From positions 2,604,001 through 2,668,000 of the forward strand of contig OX638155.1 of NCBI GenBank assembly GCA_951804945.1: a stretch of DNA of 64,000 nucleotides. The letters are read 5' to 3'. The notes beneath the pieces were generated by a model. The model was given only the letters and a program-made list of their open reading frames with translations. It was not told the origin of the DNA and searched no databases. This DNA is from Podarcis cretensis (taxonomy: Eukaryota). This document shows, in pieces, positions 3,070-62,459 of this stretch (its first letter is position 1; each line of letters starts with the position of its first letter). The position numbers and the translations under genes are program-made.

Positions 3070-5697
3070 ACCATGTCATTACCAAGGAGGCAGGTTTAGT
3101 CATTGTTTGAAGACTATCCCTGCCTCCAGGTCTGGTCCTGACCGGACGGATACTAGAATCAGCAAGGGATACCCACATGACCTGAAGGTGCTGCCGTGCA
3201 ATGCCAGGTCAATGATTCATAAGACTGCTGTCAACCACAACTTGATCTGGCATGTGTAACAGAGACTTGGTTGGATGAAGCAGATGGGCCTGTTCTTGCC
3301 GCTGCTTGTCCACCAGGTTTCTCTTATGCACAGCAACCCAGGTCATGTGGGCAGGAGGGGGGATTGCAGTGATTTTTAGGAAGTCACTAGTTTGCACCAG
3401 GCGTCCTATTGGGAAGACCCAGTTTTCTGAGTGTTCTGGAAGTTGGGCAATAGGGGCAGTACAGGATTCCTTTTGGTGTACCGACCTCCCTGCTGCACCA
3501 AGAATTCCCTGCCCGAGCTGCTTCAGGTCGTGGTGGATGTTTTCCTGGAGACACCCAGTTTGGTTGTCCTAGGGGATTTTAACATCCATGCCGACACAAC
3601 AAGGGGCCGCTCGGAACTTCATGGAAAGCTGTCCCTGAATAAGTTTGGCCAACTCACAGTTGTGGACATGTGTGACCTGGTGTTCACATTTATGGATGTG
3701 GGTGATCTGACACTAAGTAAAAGCGAAACAAAAGAAGGGCCATGGTCAGATCACTTCCTGGTGCAACTGGACCTCTCCGCAGCCCTTCCCCTCTGCAGGG
3801 AGGTGGGACCGATTCGGATAGTCCACCTCCGCCACTTAACGGATCCAAATGTTTTCCAGAGAGTGGTAGGGGATGTTTTATCCCCTGTTGATGGCCTTTC
3901 AGCTGATTCCCTGGTGGCCCGCTGGAATGCGGAGTTAACCAGGGCTATCGACTGTCTGGCTCCAAAGCGTCCTCTCCGATTGCATGGAGCCCGGACAGCC
4001 CCGTGGTTTTCCCCAGAGCTGAGGGTGATGAAACAATTGCTGAGACGGGTAGAGTGCTGGTGGTGAAAAGCTCATTCTGAATCGGACCAGACACTGGTTA
4101 GAGCTCAGCGTTGAGCCTACTAAGTGGCGATAGCGACAGCGAAGAGGACCATCTTCACTGCCTCTATTGCATCTGCAGAAAACAGCAGCAGGAAACTCTT
4201 TCAGATGGTTTGCAATTTAATGGAACCACCTTTGCCATCGGGGCCTGGTAAAGACCCCAAGATCTCCTGCAATGATTTTGCGAAGTTTTTTTTTTTTTTT
4301 CCAGATAAAGTCGCTCAGATTTGGAAAGAGGTGGACTCTACCATGGGAACAGGGCCAGGGCGGGAGAGTGCTAGAGTCCTGTCTAGTCAAGTTGCATGTG
4401 ATCAATTCCAAACTGTTGCCTCCAAGGATGTGGACAAACTGCTTGGATGAGTGAAACCAACCACCTGTCTCCTTGATCCTTGCCCATCCTGGCTCATAAA
4501 AGCGAGCTGGGAAAGGCTGAGTGATGGGCTCTGCGGGGTGATGAATGCTTCTCTCTGTGAGGGAGCCTTCCCAGACCCACTGAAAGAGGTGGTCATGAAA
4601 CTGCTACAGTTCATCAGTATGTGGATGATATCCAGCTCTATCTCTCTTTTAAATCAGAACCAGTGAATGAGGTAAAGGTCCTGTGTGAGTGTCTGGAAGC
4701 GGTTGGAGGTTGGATGGAGGCTAACAGATTGAGGTTGAATCCTGACAAGACAGAAGTACTGTTTTGGGCAGACAGAGGACAGACAGGTGTGGCGTTCTGA
4801 ATGAGGTAACTATGCCCCTGAAGGACCAGATGCACAGCCTGGGAGTCATTCTGGACTCACAGCTGTCCATAGAGGCGCAAGTGAATTCTGCGTCCAGGGC
4901 AGCTGTCTACCAGCTCCACCTGGTATGCAGGCTGAGACCCTACCTGCCTGCAGATTGTCTCGCCAGAGTGGTGCATGCTCTAGTTATCTCCCACTTGGAC
5001 TACTGCAATGTGCTCTACGTGGGGCTACCTTTGAAGGTGACCCAGAATCTACAAATAATCCAGAATGTGGCAGCTAGACTGGTGACTGGGAGTGGCTGTC
5101 AAGACCATATAACACTGGTCCTGAAAGACCTTCATTGGCTCCCAGTACTTTTCCGAGCACAATTCTAATAATAATAATAATATTATTAATAATAATAATA
5201 ATAATAATAATACCTTTATTGTTATTGTAGAACCTGTGTAAAATGAAATTAAATGAGCCTCCCCCCCACAAACACACAATCTCTTATCAAACAACACAAT
5301 TCAAAAAGTTGGTGCTGACCTTTAAAGCCCTAAATGGCCTCGGCCCAGTATACCTGAAGGAGCGTCTCCCTTCACATCATTCAGCTCAGACACTGAGGTC
5401 CAGTGCCGATGGCCTTCTGGCAGTTCCCTCACTGCAAGAAGTGAGGTTACAGGGAACCAGGCACAGGGCCTGCTTGGTAGTGGTTCCCGCCCTGTGAAAG
5501 GCCCTCCCATCAGTTGTCAAGGAAATAAACAACTATCCAACTTTTAGAAGACATTTGAAGGCAGCCCTGTTTAGGGAAGTTTTTAATGTTTGATGTTTTT
5601 ATCGTGTTTTTAATATTCTGTTGTGAACTGCCCAGAGTGGCTGGAGAGGCCTGGCCAGATGGGCAGGATATAAATAATATTATAATATTATTATTAC
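3070..5697 (+). mobile_element. Degraded L2-clade LINE (APE endonuclease, partial RT, 3' tail), internally deleted; 5' boundary approximate
   Basis: Endonuclease motifs LLVYRPP and VVLGDFNIH; LDPCPSWL; HQYVDDIQLY...LNPDKTEVL; RLRPYL...HLDYCNVLYVGLPLK...QNVAARL; LHWLP; FKALNGLGP. Many stops and frameshifts. Ends in an L2-type tail with a TAA-rich repeat. Confidence 0.92.
5166..5294 (-). mobile_element. Short 5'-truncated non-LTR insertion (3' end resembles Rex1/Babar) inside the L2
   Basis: Interrupts the L2 reading frame. Flanked by the 8-bp duplication CACAATTC (5158-5165, 5295-5302). The minus strand ends ...ACAATAACAATAAAGG(TAT)n. Confidence 0.7.
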
Positions 5698-30696: not shown

Positions 30697-30841
30697 ATCG
30701 ATGGTTGGATAGTGTTCTCAAAGCTATCAGCATGAGTATGACCAAACTGCGGGAGGCAGTGGAAGACAGGAGTGCCTGGCGTGCTCTGGTCCAGGGGGTC
30801 ACGAAGAGTCGGACACGACTAAACGACTAAACAACAACAAC
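30697..30841 (+). mobile_element. RTE/BovB LINE 3' end
   Basis: GCCTGGCGTGCTCTGGTCCA.GGGGTCACGAAGAGTCGGACACGACT followed by a (CAA)n tail. Near-TSD ATAGTTAGT/ATACTTAGT. Confidence 0.9.
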
Positions 30842-30884
30842 ATACTTAGTTTCACCAACTCATTATTTTAAATGCATGGAGAAA

Positions 30885-31626
30885 TGTAAAGTATTGCACT
30901 TGGGCAAAAAAAATGAGAGGCACAAATACAAGATGGGTGACACCTGGCTTGGGAGCAGTACATGTGAAAGGGATCTAGGAGTCTTGGTTGACCACAAACT
31001 TGACATGAGCCAACAGTGTGACGCGGCAGCTAAAAAAGCCAATGCAATTCTGGGCTGCATCAATAGGAGTATAGCATCTAGATCAAGGGAAGTAATAGTG
31101 CCACGGTATTCTGCTCCGGTCAGACCTCACCTGGAGTACTGTGTCCCGTTCTGGGCACCACAGTTCAAGAAGGACACTGACAAACTGGAACGTGTCCAGA
31201 GGAGGGCAACCAAAATGGTCAAAGGCCTGGAAACGATGCCTTATGAGGAACGGCTAAGGGAGCTGGGCATGTTTAGCCTGGAGAAGAGGAGGTTAAGGGG
31301 TGATATGATAGCCATGTTCAAATATATAAAAGGAGGGAGAAAGGTTGTTTTCTGCTGCTCCAGAGAAGCGGACACGGAGCAATGGTTCCAAACTACAAGA
31401 AAGAAGATTCCACCTAAACATTAGGAAGAACTTCCTGACAGTAAGAGCTGTTTGACAGTGGAATTTGCTGCCAAGGAGTGTGGTGGAGTCTCCTTCTTTG
31501 GAAGTCTTTAAGCAGAGGCTTGACAACCATATGTCAGGAGTGCTCTGATGGTGTTTCCTGCTTGGCAGGGGGTTGGACTCGATGGCCCTTGGGGTCTCTT
31601 CCAACTCTATGATTCTATGCTTCTAT
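30885..31626 (+). mobile_element. Young 5'-truncated CR1 LINE (ORF2 C-terminus and 3' UTR)
   Basis: KCKVLHLG...[10 protein letters not shown]...[30 protein letters not shown]...[17 protein letters not shown], with an (ATTCTATG)-type tail. TSD GAGAAA (30879-30884, 31627-31632). Confidence 0.95.
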
Positions 31627-48629: not shown

Positions 48630-49310
48630 GATGTCGCCTGCAGGGTTGCAAGGACGGGAACTCCTTCCGCGCTGCGAGGAAGAGCCTCCTCGGCCAATAC
48701 TACGACTCCCAGCATGCCCCGCGCCAGCCAGGCTTCCAAAGATGGCCGCCCTTTGCGCCGCCGCTCCTGGGCTTGGCTGTTCCGAGGCGCGCTGCGCCGT
48801 CGGATGAAGAGAAAGCGAGGCAGGCATTGGTCCGCCCCCGCCCCCCCCCCACGCCCCGGAGAAGAGAAAACCAGGACACGCGCCCGCGAAAGAGAACAAC
48901 CGAAGGAGCTCCGAGCCTGGCAGCAGTCCTGGCCAGGCCCCGCCCCCTCCCCTCAGGAGCGCCCGGCCTCCCCTCCCCCCTCGCCCGCCCGCCCTTCGCT
49001 CCCTGGCTGTGGAGGCGGCGCGGCGCGGCGCCCGAGGGTCTCCCGGCTGACGGCGAGGGCGACGCCCCCCCCCAACTGCCCGGCGATGTTCTCTCGGAGG
49101 GGCCACGCCGATGTCAAGAAGTCCACCCAGAAAGCGCTGGACCCGCGGAAGGACGTCCTGACGCGCCTCAAGCACCTCAGGGCGCTGATGGGTGAGTGGG
49201 GCAGGCGGGGGGGGGGGGGTCGCCTCCGGAGAAGGGTCCCAGCGGCGCTGGAGGGGGCGAATCCGGGATGCCCCGGGGCCCCTCCCTGCCGTGTGAGGTC
49301 GTCGTTATCA
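48630..49310 (+). promoter_or_regulatory. CpG-island promoter and 5' UTR of RALGAPA2
   Basis: Abrupt GC/CpG-rich block. CCAAT at 48694-48698, ZNF143-type ACTACGACTCCCAGCATGC at 48699-48717, YY1-type AAGATGGCCG at 48739-48748, reverse CCAAT near 48826, several GC boxes, no obvious TATA box. Confidence 0.88.
49086..49191 (+). CDS. RALGAPA2: Ral GTPase-activating protein subunit alpha-2, coding exon 1 (106 nt)
   Basis: ATG at 49086 encodes [35 protein letters not shown], matching the RALGAPA2 N-terminus as I recall it ([35 protein letters not shown]) better than RALGAPA1 (MFSKKPHG...). Donor G|GTGAGT at 49192, phase 1, inside a CpG island. Confidence 0.95.
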
Positions 49311-52790: not shown

Positions 52791-55593
52791 TGAAACATCC
52801 AGATAAGTAGATCCACAGACTTCTGCATACATACCACTTGTTGGATAAGGAATTTTGGTCACAAATCTGGTCCAGATGTTGATGTTATTCATTTGCACTG
52901 TATTGCTTTCATGTGGATGTGCATCTCCCTCCTGGCACAACTCGTAACATGAAAGTACTTGCAACCGGAACTAAACCACAGTGTTTGTATTCTAATTTAT
53001 TGATACCCTTTTTTAAAAAAAATCCTGATTTTCAGAGACTTTCAGAGTGGTTAAAAAGATAAAAGCTTGAATAGCACAATTCATTATTTAAACGAAACAA
53101 GTAAAATTCCAGCATAAAAACTAATCTGAATGTTTCTGTTAAATAACTTGGGCAAATTAAAAGGTTGCCCAATAAATGTTGACCAAAGGGAATCCTGCCT
53201 GGGTAGAACCTTTCATAAATGGGATACTACATCAGCAGTTGGGTGAAGGTAAGTACCGGTAGTCTTTACTGTGCAGGAAAGCATTCAGAGTTCCAACTAT
53301 TAAAGCTAGGTAAGAGATGAAAATGAAGAGGATGAGCCAAAAGCTGTGTGCAAGAAATTGGGGTTTAAGGAGGGGTACATTTCTTGCCATATTCATTTGT
53401 AACCAATATTACAATTGGAGAATTGAAACCAGTTCATGGCCCCTGATCTCCATTGACTTAAAGCTGCTTTTGCTTTTACCTGCATTGTATGATGCACTGA
53501 TATATATCTCAGAAAAGTTTGAGAGTGTGTCTGAAGTCTATTTGAGATTTAATAGTATCTTCTTGATGGAGCTAAGTGCAAGTTAAAATGTGAGTGTTTG
53601 TTCCATTAACTCATCTTAGTCATGTGTTAACCCAGAAAAAGTGCTGTCTGTCTCCTTTTATATCGAGTCATGAATTATTCAGTCTGTTCTGTTGGTTCAT
53701 GTAAGAATGTTGAATCTATTAGCAGAGCTTCTAACTGTCAGGATGAACCCCAGTGTTTTGCACAAACTCTTCTTTTTTCCATTACTACTCCTGCCTTGAT
53801 ACTCTTGATGGCCCTCAAGGTCTCTACATTCTTTCTCCTTGTCCGGTACCACCCTAGTACATCCTGCAAAGGATGAATTGAAGCAGAATACAAAATAGAT
53901 AATAGATAAATAAAAGCATGCAATTTTCTGGCACAGAATACTTTTGATAAGAGTTCCCATAGTTTGGCAATGACTTCAGTTCACCTTGCTTGCTCTTCAA
54001 ATTATTTTATGTTAACAGTTAAAACAAGCACGTAATGTTATTCTCATATGACTGACTCCTGCCTGATACTTGACCTGGGCTTCCTGTAATTCTCTAACTC
54101 CTGGTGGCTCATCCAGAAGTGTGTGCAGCTCATCTGAGTTCATTTGAAACTGCAAGTCAGCAGCTGCCCCACTGAACTTCCCAGCTGCTTTATAAACTTC
54201 AAGTTATTGAAAAGGAAACAGCTCCTATTATATCTGCACTACTTTTTCAGTGAGCTTTTCCATCCACCAGACCCTCAAGCGGATTTTTGGATTCAAGTGA
54301 GTGGTGGAGATTATTTTTGTAAACCGCTTTGAGTTGGAGGTTTTTTGGGGGGTTTTTTTGACAATAAGGTGGTGTATAAAGTTTATGAAATAACTAAATA
54401 AATATGGAAACTTTAGCTATTTCCTTGGTGAGAATCCCCATTTCCAAGCTGCTATTTGCCCTGGGTCCCCAAAAGAAATGGTAGATCCTATTCCAAATCT
54501 CCATTGTTTTGTCTGATTGTTTTGCCCTATTAAATATCTTCTTGTTGTTTTAAGTCTGGGCTTGTATCCATTAAATAATCAATCAATCAGTGGGGTAACT
54601 TAATAGAATCAATCTGATTTACCCTCAGAAAATTATCTTTTTCGGCACAATTTTTATATTTGTTTATAAAGATGAGCATTTAGCTATGTATTCCGTTTGT
54701 TCCCAAACAGCCTTATCTAAAATTTCAGTGTCGTTTGGATTATTTTTTAGGAATATAAATCCCTCTGCTTTCTATTCAAAACATAAAACACTGCAAACTC
54801 GAGAGTGAGCACTGATAAAAACAATAGGAAATGTAGTTTAGATATGGTACAAATATGTGGCAATGGAGCATGTAAGATTTGACAGTTGGGCAGAGCCACC
54901 CGCCTGTCAGTGGCCGATGTAATGATGATACCAGATGATGGGGTTTGTAAAGAGCCCTGCATAGTGCTTTGAAGTGCCACCAATCAGCTGATCTTTTCTG
55001 CTTCAAAGCACTAAGTAGGGCTGTTTGCAAGCGGCTTGCAAAGGATCCTTGCTTGACTTAGTGACTTCAAGGATCAGTTTGCTATGGAGTTCCCTGCGGG
55101 GAACACAGTATTATTACAGCTGATCCCAGCTGTCTTGCTCAGTGGATTGGTGGTGACAACAAATCTCCCTTACCAATGCAAATTAGGAGTGCACTTGAAG
55201 GCTCCTGCTTGTGCATTGGCAGCTCATTCTCACTTGCTCCTCACCTGATGTCACATTAGGTTAGGCCTGGGTGATATATCAATATATTGCCCAGGACTGT
55301 TATGAGGAGCAGACCGCGATGTCGGCTTCACTCAACGGTATATTGCTGGTGAAACCACCACCACTCCTGAGTCTCCCTGCTAGCAGTGTCCACTGAAGGG
55401 GGGTTAAGAGTTCCTTCCTCCAGTGGGCACTGCTAGCAGAGGGACTCAGGAGCAGTGGCGGTTTCACCAGCAGTATAGTGCTGAGTGAAACCGCCATCCC
55501 ACTCTGCCCTCATACGACAGAGAGGGAGAAACAAGCTGTATCAATGAAGCGCCGACACAGATTGTTCCTCCCTCTGCATCTATAAACTGCTTA

Positions 55594-57386
55594 TTTATTA
55601 TTATTATTTTTTAATGATATTTATTGAAGTTTCAAATAATACAAAAAAGAAAAAAGAAAACAAAAAAAGAAAAACAGTCAACCTTAACAATCCTTTTTTT
55701 TCCAATAACTTCTTTTCTGCGACTTCCCCTCCCCTCCCCTCCTTGTATTCCTTATCCAGATATTTATTTAACAAGTTCTTATTCTTAAATTTTTAACCCT
55801 AATTTGTTATTATGTCTAATTCAACTTATATATCAAATTTTAACTTATATACATTAATCATTATGCTTAAAGCCTTTTTCTAAGGTCTACCCTGTTTCCC
55901 TTGCACGAATTCCCTGTTTTTACACTAATAGCAATACAAAAAAAAGAAACAATAGAAAAAATCAAAAACATACTTGTGCACCCTTCGGATTTCCAGATCC
56001 CACCCTCCCCTTCCCGGTTTCAATCCCCAAACCATTGTCCATTTGTCCTTATGCTATCAGCCTGGATTCCTCACATCAGAAGCCCTTAAATCTCTCTCAG
56101 TTCCTTTCTGCCGGTTTTTTTGAAAGTCCTCTGTAATAACCACCGAGTCTCGGAGGGGCTCTATCCCAAAAATGTCCATGTTCCATCCGGCTGGGCCTCC
56201 AGGTTTAAAGGTGGATTTCAAAACTTGTTTCTTAATCTTTATAGGTCCAAATGTCCCAAATTCTTCAGCTATCCACAAAGGGAGAACTTTCCATTCTTCC
56301 TTCTTCAGTTCAAACCAAATTTTCATCATCTAGTCCTCTTTTTCTTTTATATCCTTCTTGACAGGCCTCCGGTTCCCTTTTGCCTTCTGCAACATGTCAG
56401 CCCCTCCTTCCTGATGCTCCTGTTCAACAAACATCTCTTTCTGCACTTTTTCTTGTTCAGCTGCCTGGGCTGTAGACAAAACATGGCTCTGCTGTACCAA
56501 TTTTCTCACGAGAAAAGCAACCTCTTCCAGATCAGCTAGTATTTTTCGACCTATTTCCATTCTTGTAGTGTCCCTGAATCCCCTTTAGAGGGATTCTGGT
56601 TATTAAGTATTCCTTACACTTCCAGCCCAAAAGTCCAGTTAACTTGTTTCAATTCTTCTTTATTTTCAACAATTTCTCACTATATTGTAACAAATGTGGC
56701 CAGCAAAGGCATCAGAAAAAAAGTTCTCTACTTTTCCCCACTTTGACAGCTAATTTGACAGCTGTCAAAGTCTTCTATGTCTCCTCGGCAGGCTCCTCTC
56801 ACGGATCGCTCCCGGGTCTCGGGGGGGCACTTTAGCTCTCAAAGTTAGCTCTTATCCTCCAGCACAGTTACTTATACTGTCAATTCGTGCAATTAATAAT
56901 TTAGTCCAATTAAAAAGGAGATATTCTCTCGACCTTAAATATATAGTCCTTGCTTCAGATTGTTTACAAGACTGGGGAGACGGACTTCCTCTTTGGTCTT
57001 CCCCGGTCGTGCCAAATTCAAAATAAATTTCTTTTATAAGTCCAATTTCCCTATTACTCATGGGTTGTTGCTTTTAGTCCAAATGTTCGTAGGAAAAAGT
57101 CAGCGCTCTCGGTCGAACGGCATGCGGCTTCGCTCGTCAGGGGAAGCAGAAGACTCACAGCACCACGCCGCTCCCGTCCCCCGCTCCACAGCCTTTAAAA
57201 AGGCTCCGTCGCGGGTCGGGGGGGCGCAAAACGGTGCCCGCTGAGTCACCATGTCCACGGGCTTCCGCGCCCGTGGTTTTTGAGGGTCCCCGCGTCGCCG
57301 GCGCAGCAGGACCCGACCCCTGTTGAGCAGATTCCCTCCGGAGCTCGGAGGGAATCCGCCATTTGGCTGTGGCGCCAACCCGGAAG
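55594..57386 (-). mobile_element. Full-length non-autonomous retroposed element with L1-type ends (HAL1-like architecture), no RT or endonuclease
   Basis: 21-bp TSD TCTGCATCTATAAACTGCTTA (55573-55593, 57387-57407). The minus strand starts CTTCCGGGTTGGCGCC...AAATGGCGG in a CpG-rich 5' region. It ends with G-rich then T-rich tracts, AATAAA (55620-55625) and an A/(TAA)n tail. Confidence 0.85.
56057..56560 (-). pseudogene. Orphan ORF of about 167 codons in the retroelement, split by one in-frame TAG
   Basis: ORF-track entries 56330-56560 and 56057-56329 abut in the same frame (…KEKED*MMKIW…). The sequence is Glu/Lys-rich and contains no domain I recognise. Confidence 0.5.
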
Positions 57387-57965
57387 TCTGCATCTATAAA
57401 CTGCTTAACTGAGGCCTGTGCAGCTGCCCTTGCCTCAGTTGAGCATTTAAAGGAGTCTCCAGCCCAGTGCTGGTTCCCGCAAGCTACCAGCGCGGCGGGG
57501 ACTCTGTGAAACTGCTCTGCTGAGGGGAGCATGGTTGCCGCTCCCTGCAGTGAGCAGTTAAAGGAGCTCTGATGCTCTCATCGCTCATGCACGAGTGGTG
57601 AGAGCACTGGGCCTGTCTGAGCAGGAGGGGGGGGGAACCTTACCTCTTCTCAGCTGAGCAGGGCAAACTAGCTCCGTTGTCCCAGCCTGTGAGCAGCTCT
57701 TGAGGCAAGTGCGGGCAGAGGCAAGAGCACTTTTCCCCCCAACCATGATGTTTGGCTAGCGATACAGTGTGATGTTGAAAAGCTGATATCACCCAGCCCT
57801 AGGCCAGGTAGGTGTGGCCCCATGGTCTTAATTGGGACCTGTGACCAAAATATAGATGGGTTTTTATACTCATGCGGGGAAAGTTAATACAAGCACAGTG
57901 TTTACTTTGTATTTCATTATCTGCACTATATCCTGGGCTAGCATGTGAACTTGGAGCCAGTTATA

Positions 57966-60525: not shown

Positions 60526-60636
60526 ATGCTATAGAGGGAAGTGAACTTAAACAGTTTTTTGAAATTAACTATTCTCAGATTTATTTTATCTTCTATGAAA
60601 ATTTCATAACACTGGAAACTAGCTTGAAACAAAAAG
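60526..60636 (+). CDS. RALGAPA2: RALGAPA2 coding exon 2 (111 nt)
   Basis: Long pyrimidine tract and TACAG acceptor ending at 60525. Joins exon 1 in frame to give [37 protein letters not shown]. Donor G|GTAAG at 60637. Confidence 0.96.
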
Positions 60637-62459
60637 GTAAGAATTTTAAGTGGCTTTGTTTGTTAGTATATTCTTTTAAGTTGCTTAATACTGACCTATA
60701 CATACTAGACCCCAAAATCCACTCCTTGGCATATCTCTATATAATAAAAATGTAAGAATGTCACCACACAGCCCACATTGGAGGACATGTGCTGCCTCAT
60801 CACAATCCTGAATTTTCCTGAATCAGAGTTGGGTCGGGCGGGGCAAAGTGAAGGCAGGTTGCCAAACAGCAGTGGCCGTGGCACTGGAGCAATACAGGAA
60901 AAACGGGGGGAAGACTGGCAATTTTTAACAATGCAGAGGTTTGAGTAGAGCAAGTGGGCATGATACTGAGCAGAGAGAAGTGGCAGTTCAAAATAAGGTT
61001 TGAGTACAATGAGAACAGTTTGGAGAGGCTCTGTTGTGTTAGCTTTTTGGTGTCAGCCATCTCTATTTCTCCTTGTTAAAACTGGTTTGTTTCAAATTTT
61101 TAAAAAAGTGTCCTTCATCCCTGCTTTATTTAAACCTCTGTTGTTGTTTAAAACGGCCATTTCCCCCTTTCAGCATCCATCTGTGTAAGAGCTAAAGGAT
61201 GTAAAGCCCTCAAATGCTCCATAGTATCTTCACACACGTTAGGAAAGTTCAGCAAACCTAACAGCAAGTGCTAGCACCATCATCCTTTGGAAAACTTTGT
61301 TGCAGCTGTTCAAACGTTGTTGTCAGCTCATGAAAAAATTGGTTGTGAGGCTCCTGGCAAGTCATTTAAGCAACTCAATCTAGCTTGGGGCTAAAAAAAA
61401 GGGGGGGAAAGTATTTATTTATTTATTTATTTATTTATTTGTAGTATGTGACAGTTTATTAAGATGTAGCCCTGCTTAGCATGCACAAGAAGCACATCTT
61501 CCCCTCCCCAAACACATTTTTATGTGATTGCAAAAGGAGGCAGAACTTTTGCTATTAAAATATTATGTCCTTAGAAGTGTAAGATACTTTTATTTGCATT
61601 CCCTTTACACACTTGTGTGATTGTACTTAATACACACAGGTCCCACTATCCAAACACAATGTGTTCTCTGGAAATAGTTCGTTAGACAAGCATTTGCATA
61701 ACAAATCAATGATTTCCACTTATTCCTATGGGGACATTTCTAATGTGTTCATGACTGCAACATTTTGACTTCCAAAGCCCCCCTGCCCCCCCGGAAAACC
61801 CTCTGAAACTGTACTAAAGTACAGATCACTAGAGTTTAATATAGTACAGTAAATAATTAAAAGGCAAACAAGGAGGGTGGAAAAAATGCTCTCTGATTTG
61901 TCTGATTGCTCCCCCTCCGTCCCTCTCTCTCCATTCCTCAGCCAACCTGCAAAAGTGAAACAAGGAAGTAAAAAATGTTTTCTGTTCATATATCTGGTGT
62001 GCGTATAGTGAGTTTGGGGTACTAATTCTTCGCGTTTGGATAAGTGATTTTTTACATAGGTCACATTTCCGAAACGCTTCCTATGTGTATTCATTTTTAA
62101 GTGTTTATGTGTATTTCAGTAAAGCTTTTGTTAAATTATCTCAGTTATTTTGATTGCATCAATTGCTGCCCTGTGGCTGAACAAAGCCCCTGGGACCAGA
62201 CAGGTTAAATTGATAAGGAGGAGTGTAGGAGCCTCCAATTCCAAGTCCTGGCACCCCATTAAAAATTTCTGATAAAATCTAAATCCTATTCAGCTACAAA
62301 TAAGTCATTATTATATCTTTTTAAATTACTCATGAGGAAATGTATATATCTAAACTTATCAAACACAAATACTATATAGAGTGAGTTTTGCAAGAATGTA
62401 ATTTGCTGAGAAGAATCGTTAAGTGGTATATCTTTTTTCAAAACAACAAGATAACACGG

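What the first reader, a model, noticed from the sequence alone, without database searches (positions are those of the whole stretch)
55573..57407. Complete 1.8-kb RT-less retroelement with L1-type ends and an orphan ORF, antisense in RALGAPA2 intron 1
Seen: a perfect 21-bp TSD; a TT|AAGC-type insertion site on the element strand; a CpG-rich 5' end starting with ETS-like CTTCCGG and YY1-like AAATGGCGG; a 69-aa upstream ORF (56852-57061); a charged ORF of about 167 codons with a single TAG; a G-rich then T-rich 3' region; AATAAA; and an A/(TAA)n tail. No endonuclease or RT motifs are present. Known: long TSDs, TT/AA sites and A tails are marks of L1-type target-primed reverse transcription, and HAL1 elements are ORF1-only L1 dependants. 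Inference: this is a young non-autonomous family with its own Pol II promoter. Its protein does not obviously show the L1 ORF1p RRM/CTD, so it may be a poorly described squamate family with a novel cargo protein. This is the best candidate for something undescribed in the window.
Basis: partly seen in the sequence, partly recalled or inferred. Interest (0 to 1): 0.72.

Follow-up and report, generated by a model that had tools for sequence, protein, structure and literature searches.

The report
Lizard half-L1 with stop-anchored peptide
This is a recent copy of a large family of stripped-down L1 jumping genes whose shortened L1-derived protein keeps a front helix and a strongly conserved 13-residue tail fixed against the stop codon, a tail that likely stalls the ribosome so that the element's RNA would stay hooked to copying machinery borrowed from full-length L1.

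Summary
The element is real: perfect 21-bp TSD, A tail, and an empty site in a related organism. It is one young copy of a many-lineage family (26 lineages sampled, lower bound) of 1.8-2.0 kb elements with shared ends and their own TSDs. It is not an orphan-cargo element. Its 5' UTR (65-71% identical) and 3' end (68-81%) come from an autonomous L1 of the same genome, and its ORF is a colinear, internally deleted L1 ORF1p, so it is HAL1-type. The in-frame TAG and the 69-aa uORF are private to this copy. What is unusual is the selection: all ORF indels keep frame (31 of 31), much of the coiled coil and RNA-binding part is deleted or drifts, and the strongest constraint (omega about 0.3) lies on the last 13-14 residues, ERDLRASDVRxPG, always next to the stop, whose codon varies. 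In the parent L1 the same motif is internal and shows no clear constraint. Best guess, untested: a termination-arrest peptide that tethers a nascent coiled-coil hook to its own mRNA to capture L1 proteins; rivals are a -PG C-degron or a free docking motif. New variant of a known kind.

The parts
57387..57407 (.). Target-site duplication, copy at the element's 5' side (its last GA doubles as the family start GACTTCCGG)
   Evidence: family starts
55573..55593 (.). Target-site duplication, copy at the 3' side
   Evidence: empty-site joint 55572 to 57387 in run X5
55594..57386 (-). Element body, 1793 bp, HAL1-type internally deleted L1 derivative
56947..57386 (-). L1-derived promoter part of the 5' UTR (first 440 nt, 66-68% identical to full-length L1 5' ends), CpG-rich; first 50 nt are the best-conserved part of the UTR
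57327..57359 (-). Near-perfect 14-bp hairpin at the 5' end, shared by the family lineages; role unknown
   Evidence: (I6)
56852..57061 (-). 69-aa uORF, private to this copy; its ATG is a G-to-A change in a conserved CGTGAGT (splice-donor-like) site
56057..56560 (-). Main ORF (167 codons plus TGA): degenerate L1 ORF1p, broken in this copy
56477..56560 (-). N-terminal about 28 residues, remnant of the ORF1p coiled-coil start, predicted helix, omega about 0.5, kept in all lineages aligned
56330..56332 (-). Premature TAG private to this copy (TGG in sister copies)
56060..56098 (-). C-terminal 13 residues ERDLRASDVRNPG, most constrained part, directly before the stop
55613..55870 (-). L1-derived 3' end: GGAATACAA/G-rich box (55733-55751), T-rich tract, AATAAA (55620-55625); the 5' border is approximate
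55594..55612 (-). A/(TAA)n tail
49086..49191 (+). Host gene exon 1 (RALGAPA2-like), context only
60526..60638 (+). Host gene exon 2 (RALGAPA2-like), context only

Best explanation
It is a young, broken copy of an old HAL1-type family, an L1 that lost ORF2 and kept L1's 5' and 3' ends and a cut-down ORF1 protein, and it is likely copied by borrowed L1 proteins that it would capture through a predicted tether: an N-terminal coiled-coil remnant held on its own mRNA by a C-terminal peptide that likely stalls the ribosome at the stop codon. Shown: L1 origin of both ends and of the ORF, no ORF2, TSDs and A tails, frame kept across lineages, amino-acid-level selection peaking on the last 13-14 residues with a fixed stop position (identity of the element: about 0.9). 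Inferred: Pol II transcription from the L1-type promoter, translation, mobilisation by L1 ORF2p with L1 ORF1p. Hypothesis (about 0.4): slow termination at ...PG-stop keeps the nascent chain on the element's mRNA while its first 28 or more residues, outside the exit tunnel, co-assemble with L1 ORF1p coiled coils, which gives a parasite without its own full RNA-binding domain a form of cis preference.
For: Ends: 5' 440 nt 64-72% identical to full-length L1s; 3' 200-300 nt 68-81% identical to L1 3' UTRs; the L1 carries an RT. ORF: family profile scores 16-18 bits on 4 of 5 L1 ORF1p (9 on the fifth) against a best of 9.9 in 1000 shuffles, in two colinear blocks; profile-profile E 1.5e-4; ungapped in-frame DNA match of 145 nt at 60%. 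Frame: 31 of 31 ORF gaps are multiples of 3, against 30 of 123 in the 5' UTR and 17 of 54 in the 3' UTR. Selection on 100 CDS without motif filter: omega 0.64 overall, 0.54 (residues 1-28), 0.97 (29-100), 0.61 (101-178), 0.77 (179-195), 0.32 (196-209; lnL gain 21.8 over omega 1 with kappa fixed); synonymous rate is highest in the last 14 codons, so the constraint is on the peptide, not the RNA. Stop codon is TGA, TAA or TAG in different lineages at the same place. Conserved positions run from -13 to -1 (E 96, L 95, R/K 99, A 97, V 93, P 96, G 95 of 100), a span more like an exit-tunnel signal than a 2-4 residue degron (inference). In L1 the motif is internal and shows omega about 1.1 and 0.6 on few changes while the preceding domain shows 0.2. 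Literature: an F2A peptide ending PG-stop stalls ribosomes in lysate and an (R/K)DLTxE upstream motif exists (PMC12846837, passages and section 10); distinct L1 coiled coils form heterotrimers when co-expressed (PMC10588031, abstract); Pol II transcripts need ORF1p as well as ORF2p (PMC2666806, abstract).
Against: No experiment or expression data. The peptide fails the StopGo core (no E, N not fixed, one residue short). Positions -12, -11, -7, -6, -4 and -3 vary between lineages, including RAFD in 5 close relatives of this copy. Six of 30 copies from the DNA search lose the tail through an A-run slip; mostly scattered on the tree, but two are sisters and a third is close, which may mean a tail-less template moved. 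This copy's lineage has deleted most of the coiled coil. The middle part 101-178 is also constrained (0.61) although whole blocks of it are deleted in some lineages, which the tether model does not explain. Copies for the selection tests were mostly found by protein search and chosen for open frames, which favours frame-keeping; the L1 control rests on 14 of 30 loci and few changes.
Confidence: 0.4

Rival explanations
1. The tail is a C-end degron (-PG, KLHDC10 type) that makes the truncated ORF1p short-lived, so that it acts only near its own mRNA and does not poison the L1 it depends on.
For: P at -2 and G at -1 in 96 and 95 of 100 CDS with a fixed stop. KLHDC10 recognises -WG/-PG/-AG ends (PMC12035522, passages); Gly is the rarest natural C-terminal residue (PMC9098119, passages); truncated human ORF1p with its coiled coil suppresses L1 in trans (PMC5605252, abstract and passages).
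Against: The RxxG form read by APPBP2 (PMC10614623, passages) is lost in a successful lineage: W at -4 in 22 of 100 CDS. Conservation of E-13, L-10, R/K-9 and A-8 is more than a -PG degron is known to need (inference).
Confidence: 0.2
2. The tail is a docking motif of the finished protein, inherited from the L1 ORF1p tail, that binds L1 ORF2p, L1 RNP or a host factor; the protein multimerises with L1 ORF1p in the ordinary HAL1/HeT-A way.
For: The motif descends from a tandem RASDRRSP-type repeat in the L1 ORF1p tail. PMC5786205 (passages) proposes that such ORF1-only proteins multimerise with those of the autonomous partner.
Against: The motif is not clearly constrained in L1 itself; a docking motif would not need a fixed distance to the stop (one of 100 CDS has a 5-residue extension).
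Confidence: 0.2
3. The protein is a competitor that poisons or diverts L1 RNPs in trans (dominant-negative ORF1p), freeing ORF2p for the element's RNA.
For: Architecture equals the suppressive human fragments (coiled coil without a full RNA-binding part; PMC5605252, abstract).
Against: A trans effect benefits broken copies equally, so it explains lineage-level purifying selection poorly, and does not explain the tail.
Confidence: 0.1
4. Only the act of translation or an RNA signal matters (ribosome loading, mRNA stability); the peptide is incidental.
For: Omega near 1 for residues 29-100 and free in-frame deletions.
Against: Omega 0.26-0.32 with the highest synonymous rate in the last 14 codons, and 0.45-0.54 at the N terminus.
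Confidence: 0.07
5. The ORF is an unrelated cargo gene captured between L1 ends.
For: No Pfam, Atlas, PDB or named homologue; profile-profile probability only 23-52%.
Against: Colinear protein and in-frame DNA similarity to the ORF1 of the L1 that also supplied both ends.
Confidence: 0.03

Closest known systems
HAL1 (half-L1) elements of mammals
   Same: Non-autonomous L1 derivative with L1 5' and 3' parts, one ORF of ORF1 origin, no ORF2, TSDs and A tail (definition from PMC5753468 and PMC5786205, passages).
   Different: Independent lizard origin; the protein is about half an ORF1p, lacking the N-terminal 55 residues, 75-95 residues of the RRM/CTD region and the last 50; selection has moved to a stop-adjacent tail. 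The HAL1 paper itself (Bao and Jurka 2010) was not held, so degeneration of this kind in known HAL1s could not be checked.
Autonomous L1 family of the same genome (L123, L130, L153)
   Same: 5' UTR, 3' UTR, start GACTTCCGG, ORF1 ancestry including the RASDxRSP motif.
   Different: Has ORF2 with RT; ORF1p complete; the motif is internal, duplicated and not clearly constrained. Which L1 lineage mobilises the element today was not determined.
HeT-A and Ag-Sponge (ORF1-only non-autonomous LINEs)
   Same: ORF1-only LINE derivatives thought to multimerise with partner proteins (PMC5786205, passages).
   Different: Jockey and CR1 clades; HeT-A is telomere-targeted; no shared sequence tested.
StopGo/2A peptides and PG-stop stalling constructs
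   Same: Conserved stretch of about 13-14 residues ending in PG; RDL...DV...PG resembles the (R/K)DLTxE class (PMC12846837).
   Different: One residue shorter, no ExN core, followed by a stop instead of Pro, and descended from L1 ORF1p rather than from a 2A.
XBP1u arrest peptide; Alu-SRP9/14 ribosome hijack (both recalled, no call)
   Same: Logic of tethering an RNA through a paused ribosome to a partner machinery.
   Different: No sequence relation; analogy only.

Membership tests
HAL1-type non-autonomous L1 | L1-derived 5' region | tested here: met
   first 440 nt 64-72% identical to full-length L1s for all 21 lineage representatives and this copy
HAL1-type non-autonomous L1 | L1-derived 3' end with A tail and variable TSD | tested here: met
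   (71 of 78 copies with TSD of 10 bp or more)
HAL1-type non-autonomous L1 | No ORF2 (no EN/RT) | tested here: met
   A tail and TSD follow 420-560 nt after the ORF in all lineages read
HAL1-type non-autonomous L1 | Single ORF homologous to L1 ORF1p | tested here: met
   (partial, colinear)
HAL1-type non-autonomous L1 | Complete ORF1p (coiled coil + RRM + CTD) | tested here: not met
   L1 residues about 215-290 and both ends have no counterpart; RRM/CTD labels for the lizard ORF1p rest on position and recalled motifs, since Pfam and fold searches did not confirm them
HAL1-type non-autonomous L1 | Multiplies as a family, not a one-off deletion | tested here: met
   (26 clusters at 95% among 91 CDS)
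HAL1-type non-autonomous L1 | Identity with a catalogued Repbase/Dfam family | not testable with these tools
   no repeat library on hand
HAL1-type non-autonomous L1 | Mobilisation by L1 ORF2p in trans | not testable with these tools
   inferred from ends and TSDs
StopGo/2A peptide | Core (D/G/C/N)(V/I)ExNPGP | tested here: not met
   tail is DVRxPG-stop; N at -3 in 32 of 100, no E at -5 in 98 of 100 (motif)
StopGo/2A peptide | Downstream Pro and continued ORF | tested here: not met
   stop codon follows G
StopGo/2A peptide | Upstream tunnel motif such as (R/K)DLTxE | tested here: inconclusive
   RDL present but one position nearer the end
Nascent-chain arrest peptide | Conserved C-terminal residues at fixed distance from the stall codon, synonymous sites free | tested here: met
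Nascent-chain arrest peptide | Measured ribosome stalling | not testable with these tools
   needs toeprinting or ribosome profiling
C-end degron, RxxG (APPBP2) | Arg four residues from the end, Gly last | tested here: not met
   R at -4 in 77 of 100; a whole lineage has W
C-end degron, -PG (KLHDC10) | Free C-terminal Pro-Gly | tested here: met
   P 96, G 95 of 100
C-end degron, -PG (KLHDC10) | CRL2-dependent turnover | not testable with these tools
   needs a reporter assay
SINE (small-RNA head) | tRNA/7SL/5S-derived head, no protein | tested here: not met
   head is L1 5' UTR; no Rfam match; ORF under selection
Processed pseudogene or one-off deleted L1 | Single copy or copies decaying neutrally from one source | tested here: not met

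The most novel reading that the evidence does not exclude
A third way to parasitise L1: a Pol II element that rebuilt L1 ORF1p into a ribosome-displayed adaptor, with a coiled-coil hook at the front, a disposable spacer and a newly evolved stop-codon arrest peptide made from a neutral stretch of the L1 tail, so that its mRNA captures L1 RNP components co-translationally; this would also be a new class of eukaryotic arrest peptide, convergent on 2A.
Probability: 0.3. Interest if true: 0.85.

Novelty: new variant of a known kind. Interest (0 to 1): 0.62.

Why it matters
How RNAs other than L1's own defeat L1 cis preference is a long-standing question, and what HAL1-type proteins do has been proposed but, in the passages read, not shown. 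Here dozens of co-existing lineages give a natural mutagenesis that points to two short elements (a front helix and a 13-residue stop-anchored tail), which makes the question testable with small constructs. Whether arrest peptide, degron or docking motif, it shows a neutral piece of L1 ORF1p acquiring a new function in a parasite. Practically, the family is an abundant, recently active, unannotated-looking repeat with its own CpG-rich promoter, useful as an insertion marker between closely related lizards.

Tried and rejected
Pfam on the element ORFs and alignment: nothing above cut-off. Atlas: no usable hit. PDB sequence and fold searches for the element protein: nothing significant, model pLDDT 49 with only the first 60 residues confident. 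Longer homologues: none at E 1 or below among 7990 candidates, weak evidence. Pfam L1 ORF1 families PF02994 and PF17490 found nothing in the genome and nothing in controls, so uninformative; L1 was found by walking from ORF2 fragments. Fold of the L1 ORF1p: low confidence, human ORF1p and L1TD1 appear only as non-significant rows. Complex prediction of the element's N terminus with two L1 ORF1p coiled coils: no verdict. Sequencing runs: no RNA holder listed. Rfam: none. uORF as a family feature: rejected. RxxG degron as the general function: rejected. My first selection analysis used a filter that required a tail-like pattern and so dropped 9 full-length variant copies; redone without it (tail omega 0.26 became 0.32; conclusion unchanged); frameshifted or prematurely stopped copies remain excluded (12 loci listed). 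Earlier findings by sequence and by words: none. The host group (lizard) comes from earlier notes and was not tested; taxon words in paper searches were guesses.
Full report
Observation. The minus-strand sequence shows the element as described. The 21-bp direct repeat at 55573-55593 and 57387-57407 is perfect. The 5' end is GC- and CpG-rich, the ORF runs 56560-56060 with TAG at 56330-56332, and AATAAA and an A/(TAA)n tail close it. Two + strand exons at 49086-49191 and about 60526-60638 match RalGAP alpha-2 in the PDB (alpha-1 not compared), so the element lies antisense in intron 1.

It is a family. A DNA search of the own genome scored 40 of 5035 candidates and gave 36 matches over most of the element at 82-100% identity. 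The 30 fetched copies start at (G)GACTTCCGG (one lacks its first 92 nt) and all but two 3'-short ones end in AATAAATATCATT-type signals plus an A tail. Protein searches with three different members gave 162, 127 and 188 matches from 150 scored candidates each, overlapping and lower bounds. Fetched members are 1.8-2.0 kb, with a 770-835 nt 5' UTR, one ORF of 167-222 aa and a 420-560 nt 3' UTR; none has an ORF2. Of 78 distinct copies with both ends, 71 have a TSD of 10-21 bp, often with a few extra, mostly G, bases at the 5' junction. 91 open CDS fall into 26 clusters at 95%. Ten unnamed Logan proteins are relatives, nine at 32-52% by local alignment; none carries a name (nine clusters looked up). 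Summed contig depth over the 5'-most bin is 3,600-5,100 times the unique flank in four DNA runs, a hint of thousands of 5' ends but not a copy number.

This copy is young and broken. Its nearest relative is 98% identical. A contig of run X5 (organism B) joins 55572 to 57387, the empty site, at flank-like depth, while contigs of X1-X3 (organism A, one study; X1 may be the window's own source) cross the filled 5' junction. The TAG is TGG in 28 of 30 copies. The uORF is open only here (1 of 30); its ATG is a change in a CGTGAGT site kept in 18 of 21 lineage representatives and in L1.

Origin from L1. Walking from ORF2 fragments gave a very abundant L1 with an RT. The last 200-300 nt of family members match its 3' UTR at 68-81% (top 40 rows shown, this copy's lineage not among them but sharing the GGAATACAA box and the end signal by eye), and the first 440 nt match its 5' UTR at 64-72% for every representative. 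The family protein profile hits L1 ORF1p in two colinear blocks, about residues 57-214 and 289/309-335, at 16-18 bits on 4 of 5 proteins against a best of 9.9 in 1000 shuffles; hhalign gives E 1.5e-4, probability 52%; an ungapped in-frame DNA match of 145 nt at 60% lies in the first block. The tail ERDLRASDVRxPG descends from a tandem RASDRRSP-type repeat in the L1 ORF1p tail. Pfam does not recognise this L1 ORF1p, which is why the element's protein looks orphan. The RRM/CTD labels for the lizard protein rest on position and recalled motifs; the fold tests were inconclusive.

Selection. All 31 distinct ORF gaps among 20 representatives are multiples of three, against 30 of 123 and 17 of 54 in the UTRs (representatives were chosen with open frames, but of the 30 copies picked by DNA alone 21 have the full frame: 17 counted by a strict pattern plus 4 RAFD variants). 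On 100 CDS without a motif filter the codon model gives omega 0.64 overall; 0.54 for residues 1-28, 0.97 for 29-100, 0.61 for 101-178, 0.77 for 179-195 and 0.32 for 196-209 (earlier filtered runs gave 0.25-0.26 for the tail). The synonymous rate is highest in the tail, so the peptide, not the RNA, is conserved. The stop is TGA, TAA or TAG by lineage, always after PG; one of 100 CDS has a 5-residue extension. In L1, on 14 of 30 loci and few changes, the domain before the tail has omega 0.2 and the two motif copies 1.1 and 0.6: the constraint has moved. Lineages delete most of the coiled coil (this one) or 30 or more residues of the RRM-derived block; what all keep is the first helix (predicted with pLDDT 71-88 for residues 1-60), a spacer and the tail. 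Against necessity of the tail: six of 30 copies lose it by an A-run slip, two of them sisters, and a lineage has KASE/GVWDPG.

Mechanism. Shown: L1 origin, loss of ORF2, TPRT-type marks, selection pattern. Inferred: Pol II transcription and use of L1 proteins in trans; Pol II transcripts need ORF1p as well as ORF2p (PMC2666806, abstract). I commit to a tether: the tail slows termination at PG-stop and the nascent N-terminal helix co-assembles with L1 ORF1p, tying L1 RNP parts to the element's own mRNA. Support is indirect: an F2A peptide with PG-stop stalls ribosomes, and an (R/K)DLTxE class exists (PMC12846837, passages and section 10), though our tail is one residue short and lacks the core; distinct L1 coiled coils form heterotrimers (PMC10588031, abstract). 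Rivals: a -PG C-degron (PMC12035522 and PMC9098119, passages; the RxxG type of PMC10614623, passages, fails in 23 of 100 CDS), a free docking motif (PMC5786205, passages), a dominant-negative ORF1p (PMC5605252, abstract and passages), or translation alone. XBP1u and Alu-SRP9/14 are recalled analogies.

Known versus new. It works like and is best filed with HAL1-type ORF1-only L1 derivatives (PMC5753468, PMC4859970, passages), with the reservation that its ORF1p is incomplete. It is not a 2A, a SINE or a pseudogene. In the held library no paper has HAL1, non-autonomous and squamate together, and the listings show no title on such a lizard family or on an arrest peptide in a HAL1; these are listings of an open-access library only. 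The original HAL1 paper was not held, and Repbase, Dfam and supplements were not seen, so the family may be catalogued under a generic L1 name.

Verdict. Observation confirmed; interpretation partly supported (family yes, orphan cargo no). New variant of a known kind; interest 0.62, carried by the stop-anchored peptide and its easy tests.

Noticed in passing
window 55309-55507: Long inverted repeat (91-nt arms, 82% complementary, 17-nt loop) 65 bp from the insertion, multi-copy by contig depth; looks like a MITE or palindromic repeat.
   Followed up: no
L123:2666-3834 and L130, L153 ORF1: This genome's L1 ORF1p is not recognised by Pfam L1 families and has a tandem RASDRRSP-type repeat and a Pro/Glu-rich end after its folded part.
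   Followed up: partly
window 57055-57062 (- strand) and about nt 325 of family and L1 5' UTRs: Conserved splice-donor-like CGTGAGT in 18 of 21 lineage representatives and in L1; splicing would remove upstream ATGs of the long 5' UTR; no acceptor or spliced copy was sought.
   Followed up: partly
window 56740-56771: Perfect 12-bp inverted repeat (ACTTTGACAGCT arms) in the non-L1-like half of the 5' UTR, in a locally well-conserved block with very high contig depth.
   Followed up: no
L098 (G000:C2, near 54.527 Mb): Family copy with both ends and a TSD but a 5' UTR of only 226 nt, joined at a short AGCT microhomology between the two hairpins, possibly an RT template jump.
   Followed up: no
L053 5' UTR: About 370 bp of L1 sequence inserted into a family copy that itself sits in an RTE-like element.
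   Followed up: no
L132, L133, L136, L139, L141: Family-like 5' UTR sequence in inverted orientation just upstream of L1 ORF1, several near contig ends; either antisense insertions or inverted 5' ends.
   Followed up: no
L055:3011-3289 (element strand): A second, 5'-truncated member of a further diverged lineage ending RASDIRSPG directly downstream of a full-length copy.
   Followed up: no
window 3431-5165 and 30831-31421: RT/EN-like fragments of other LINEs (L2/CR1-like by recalled motifs) elsewhere in the window.
   Followed up: no
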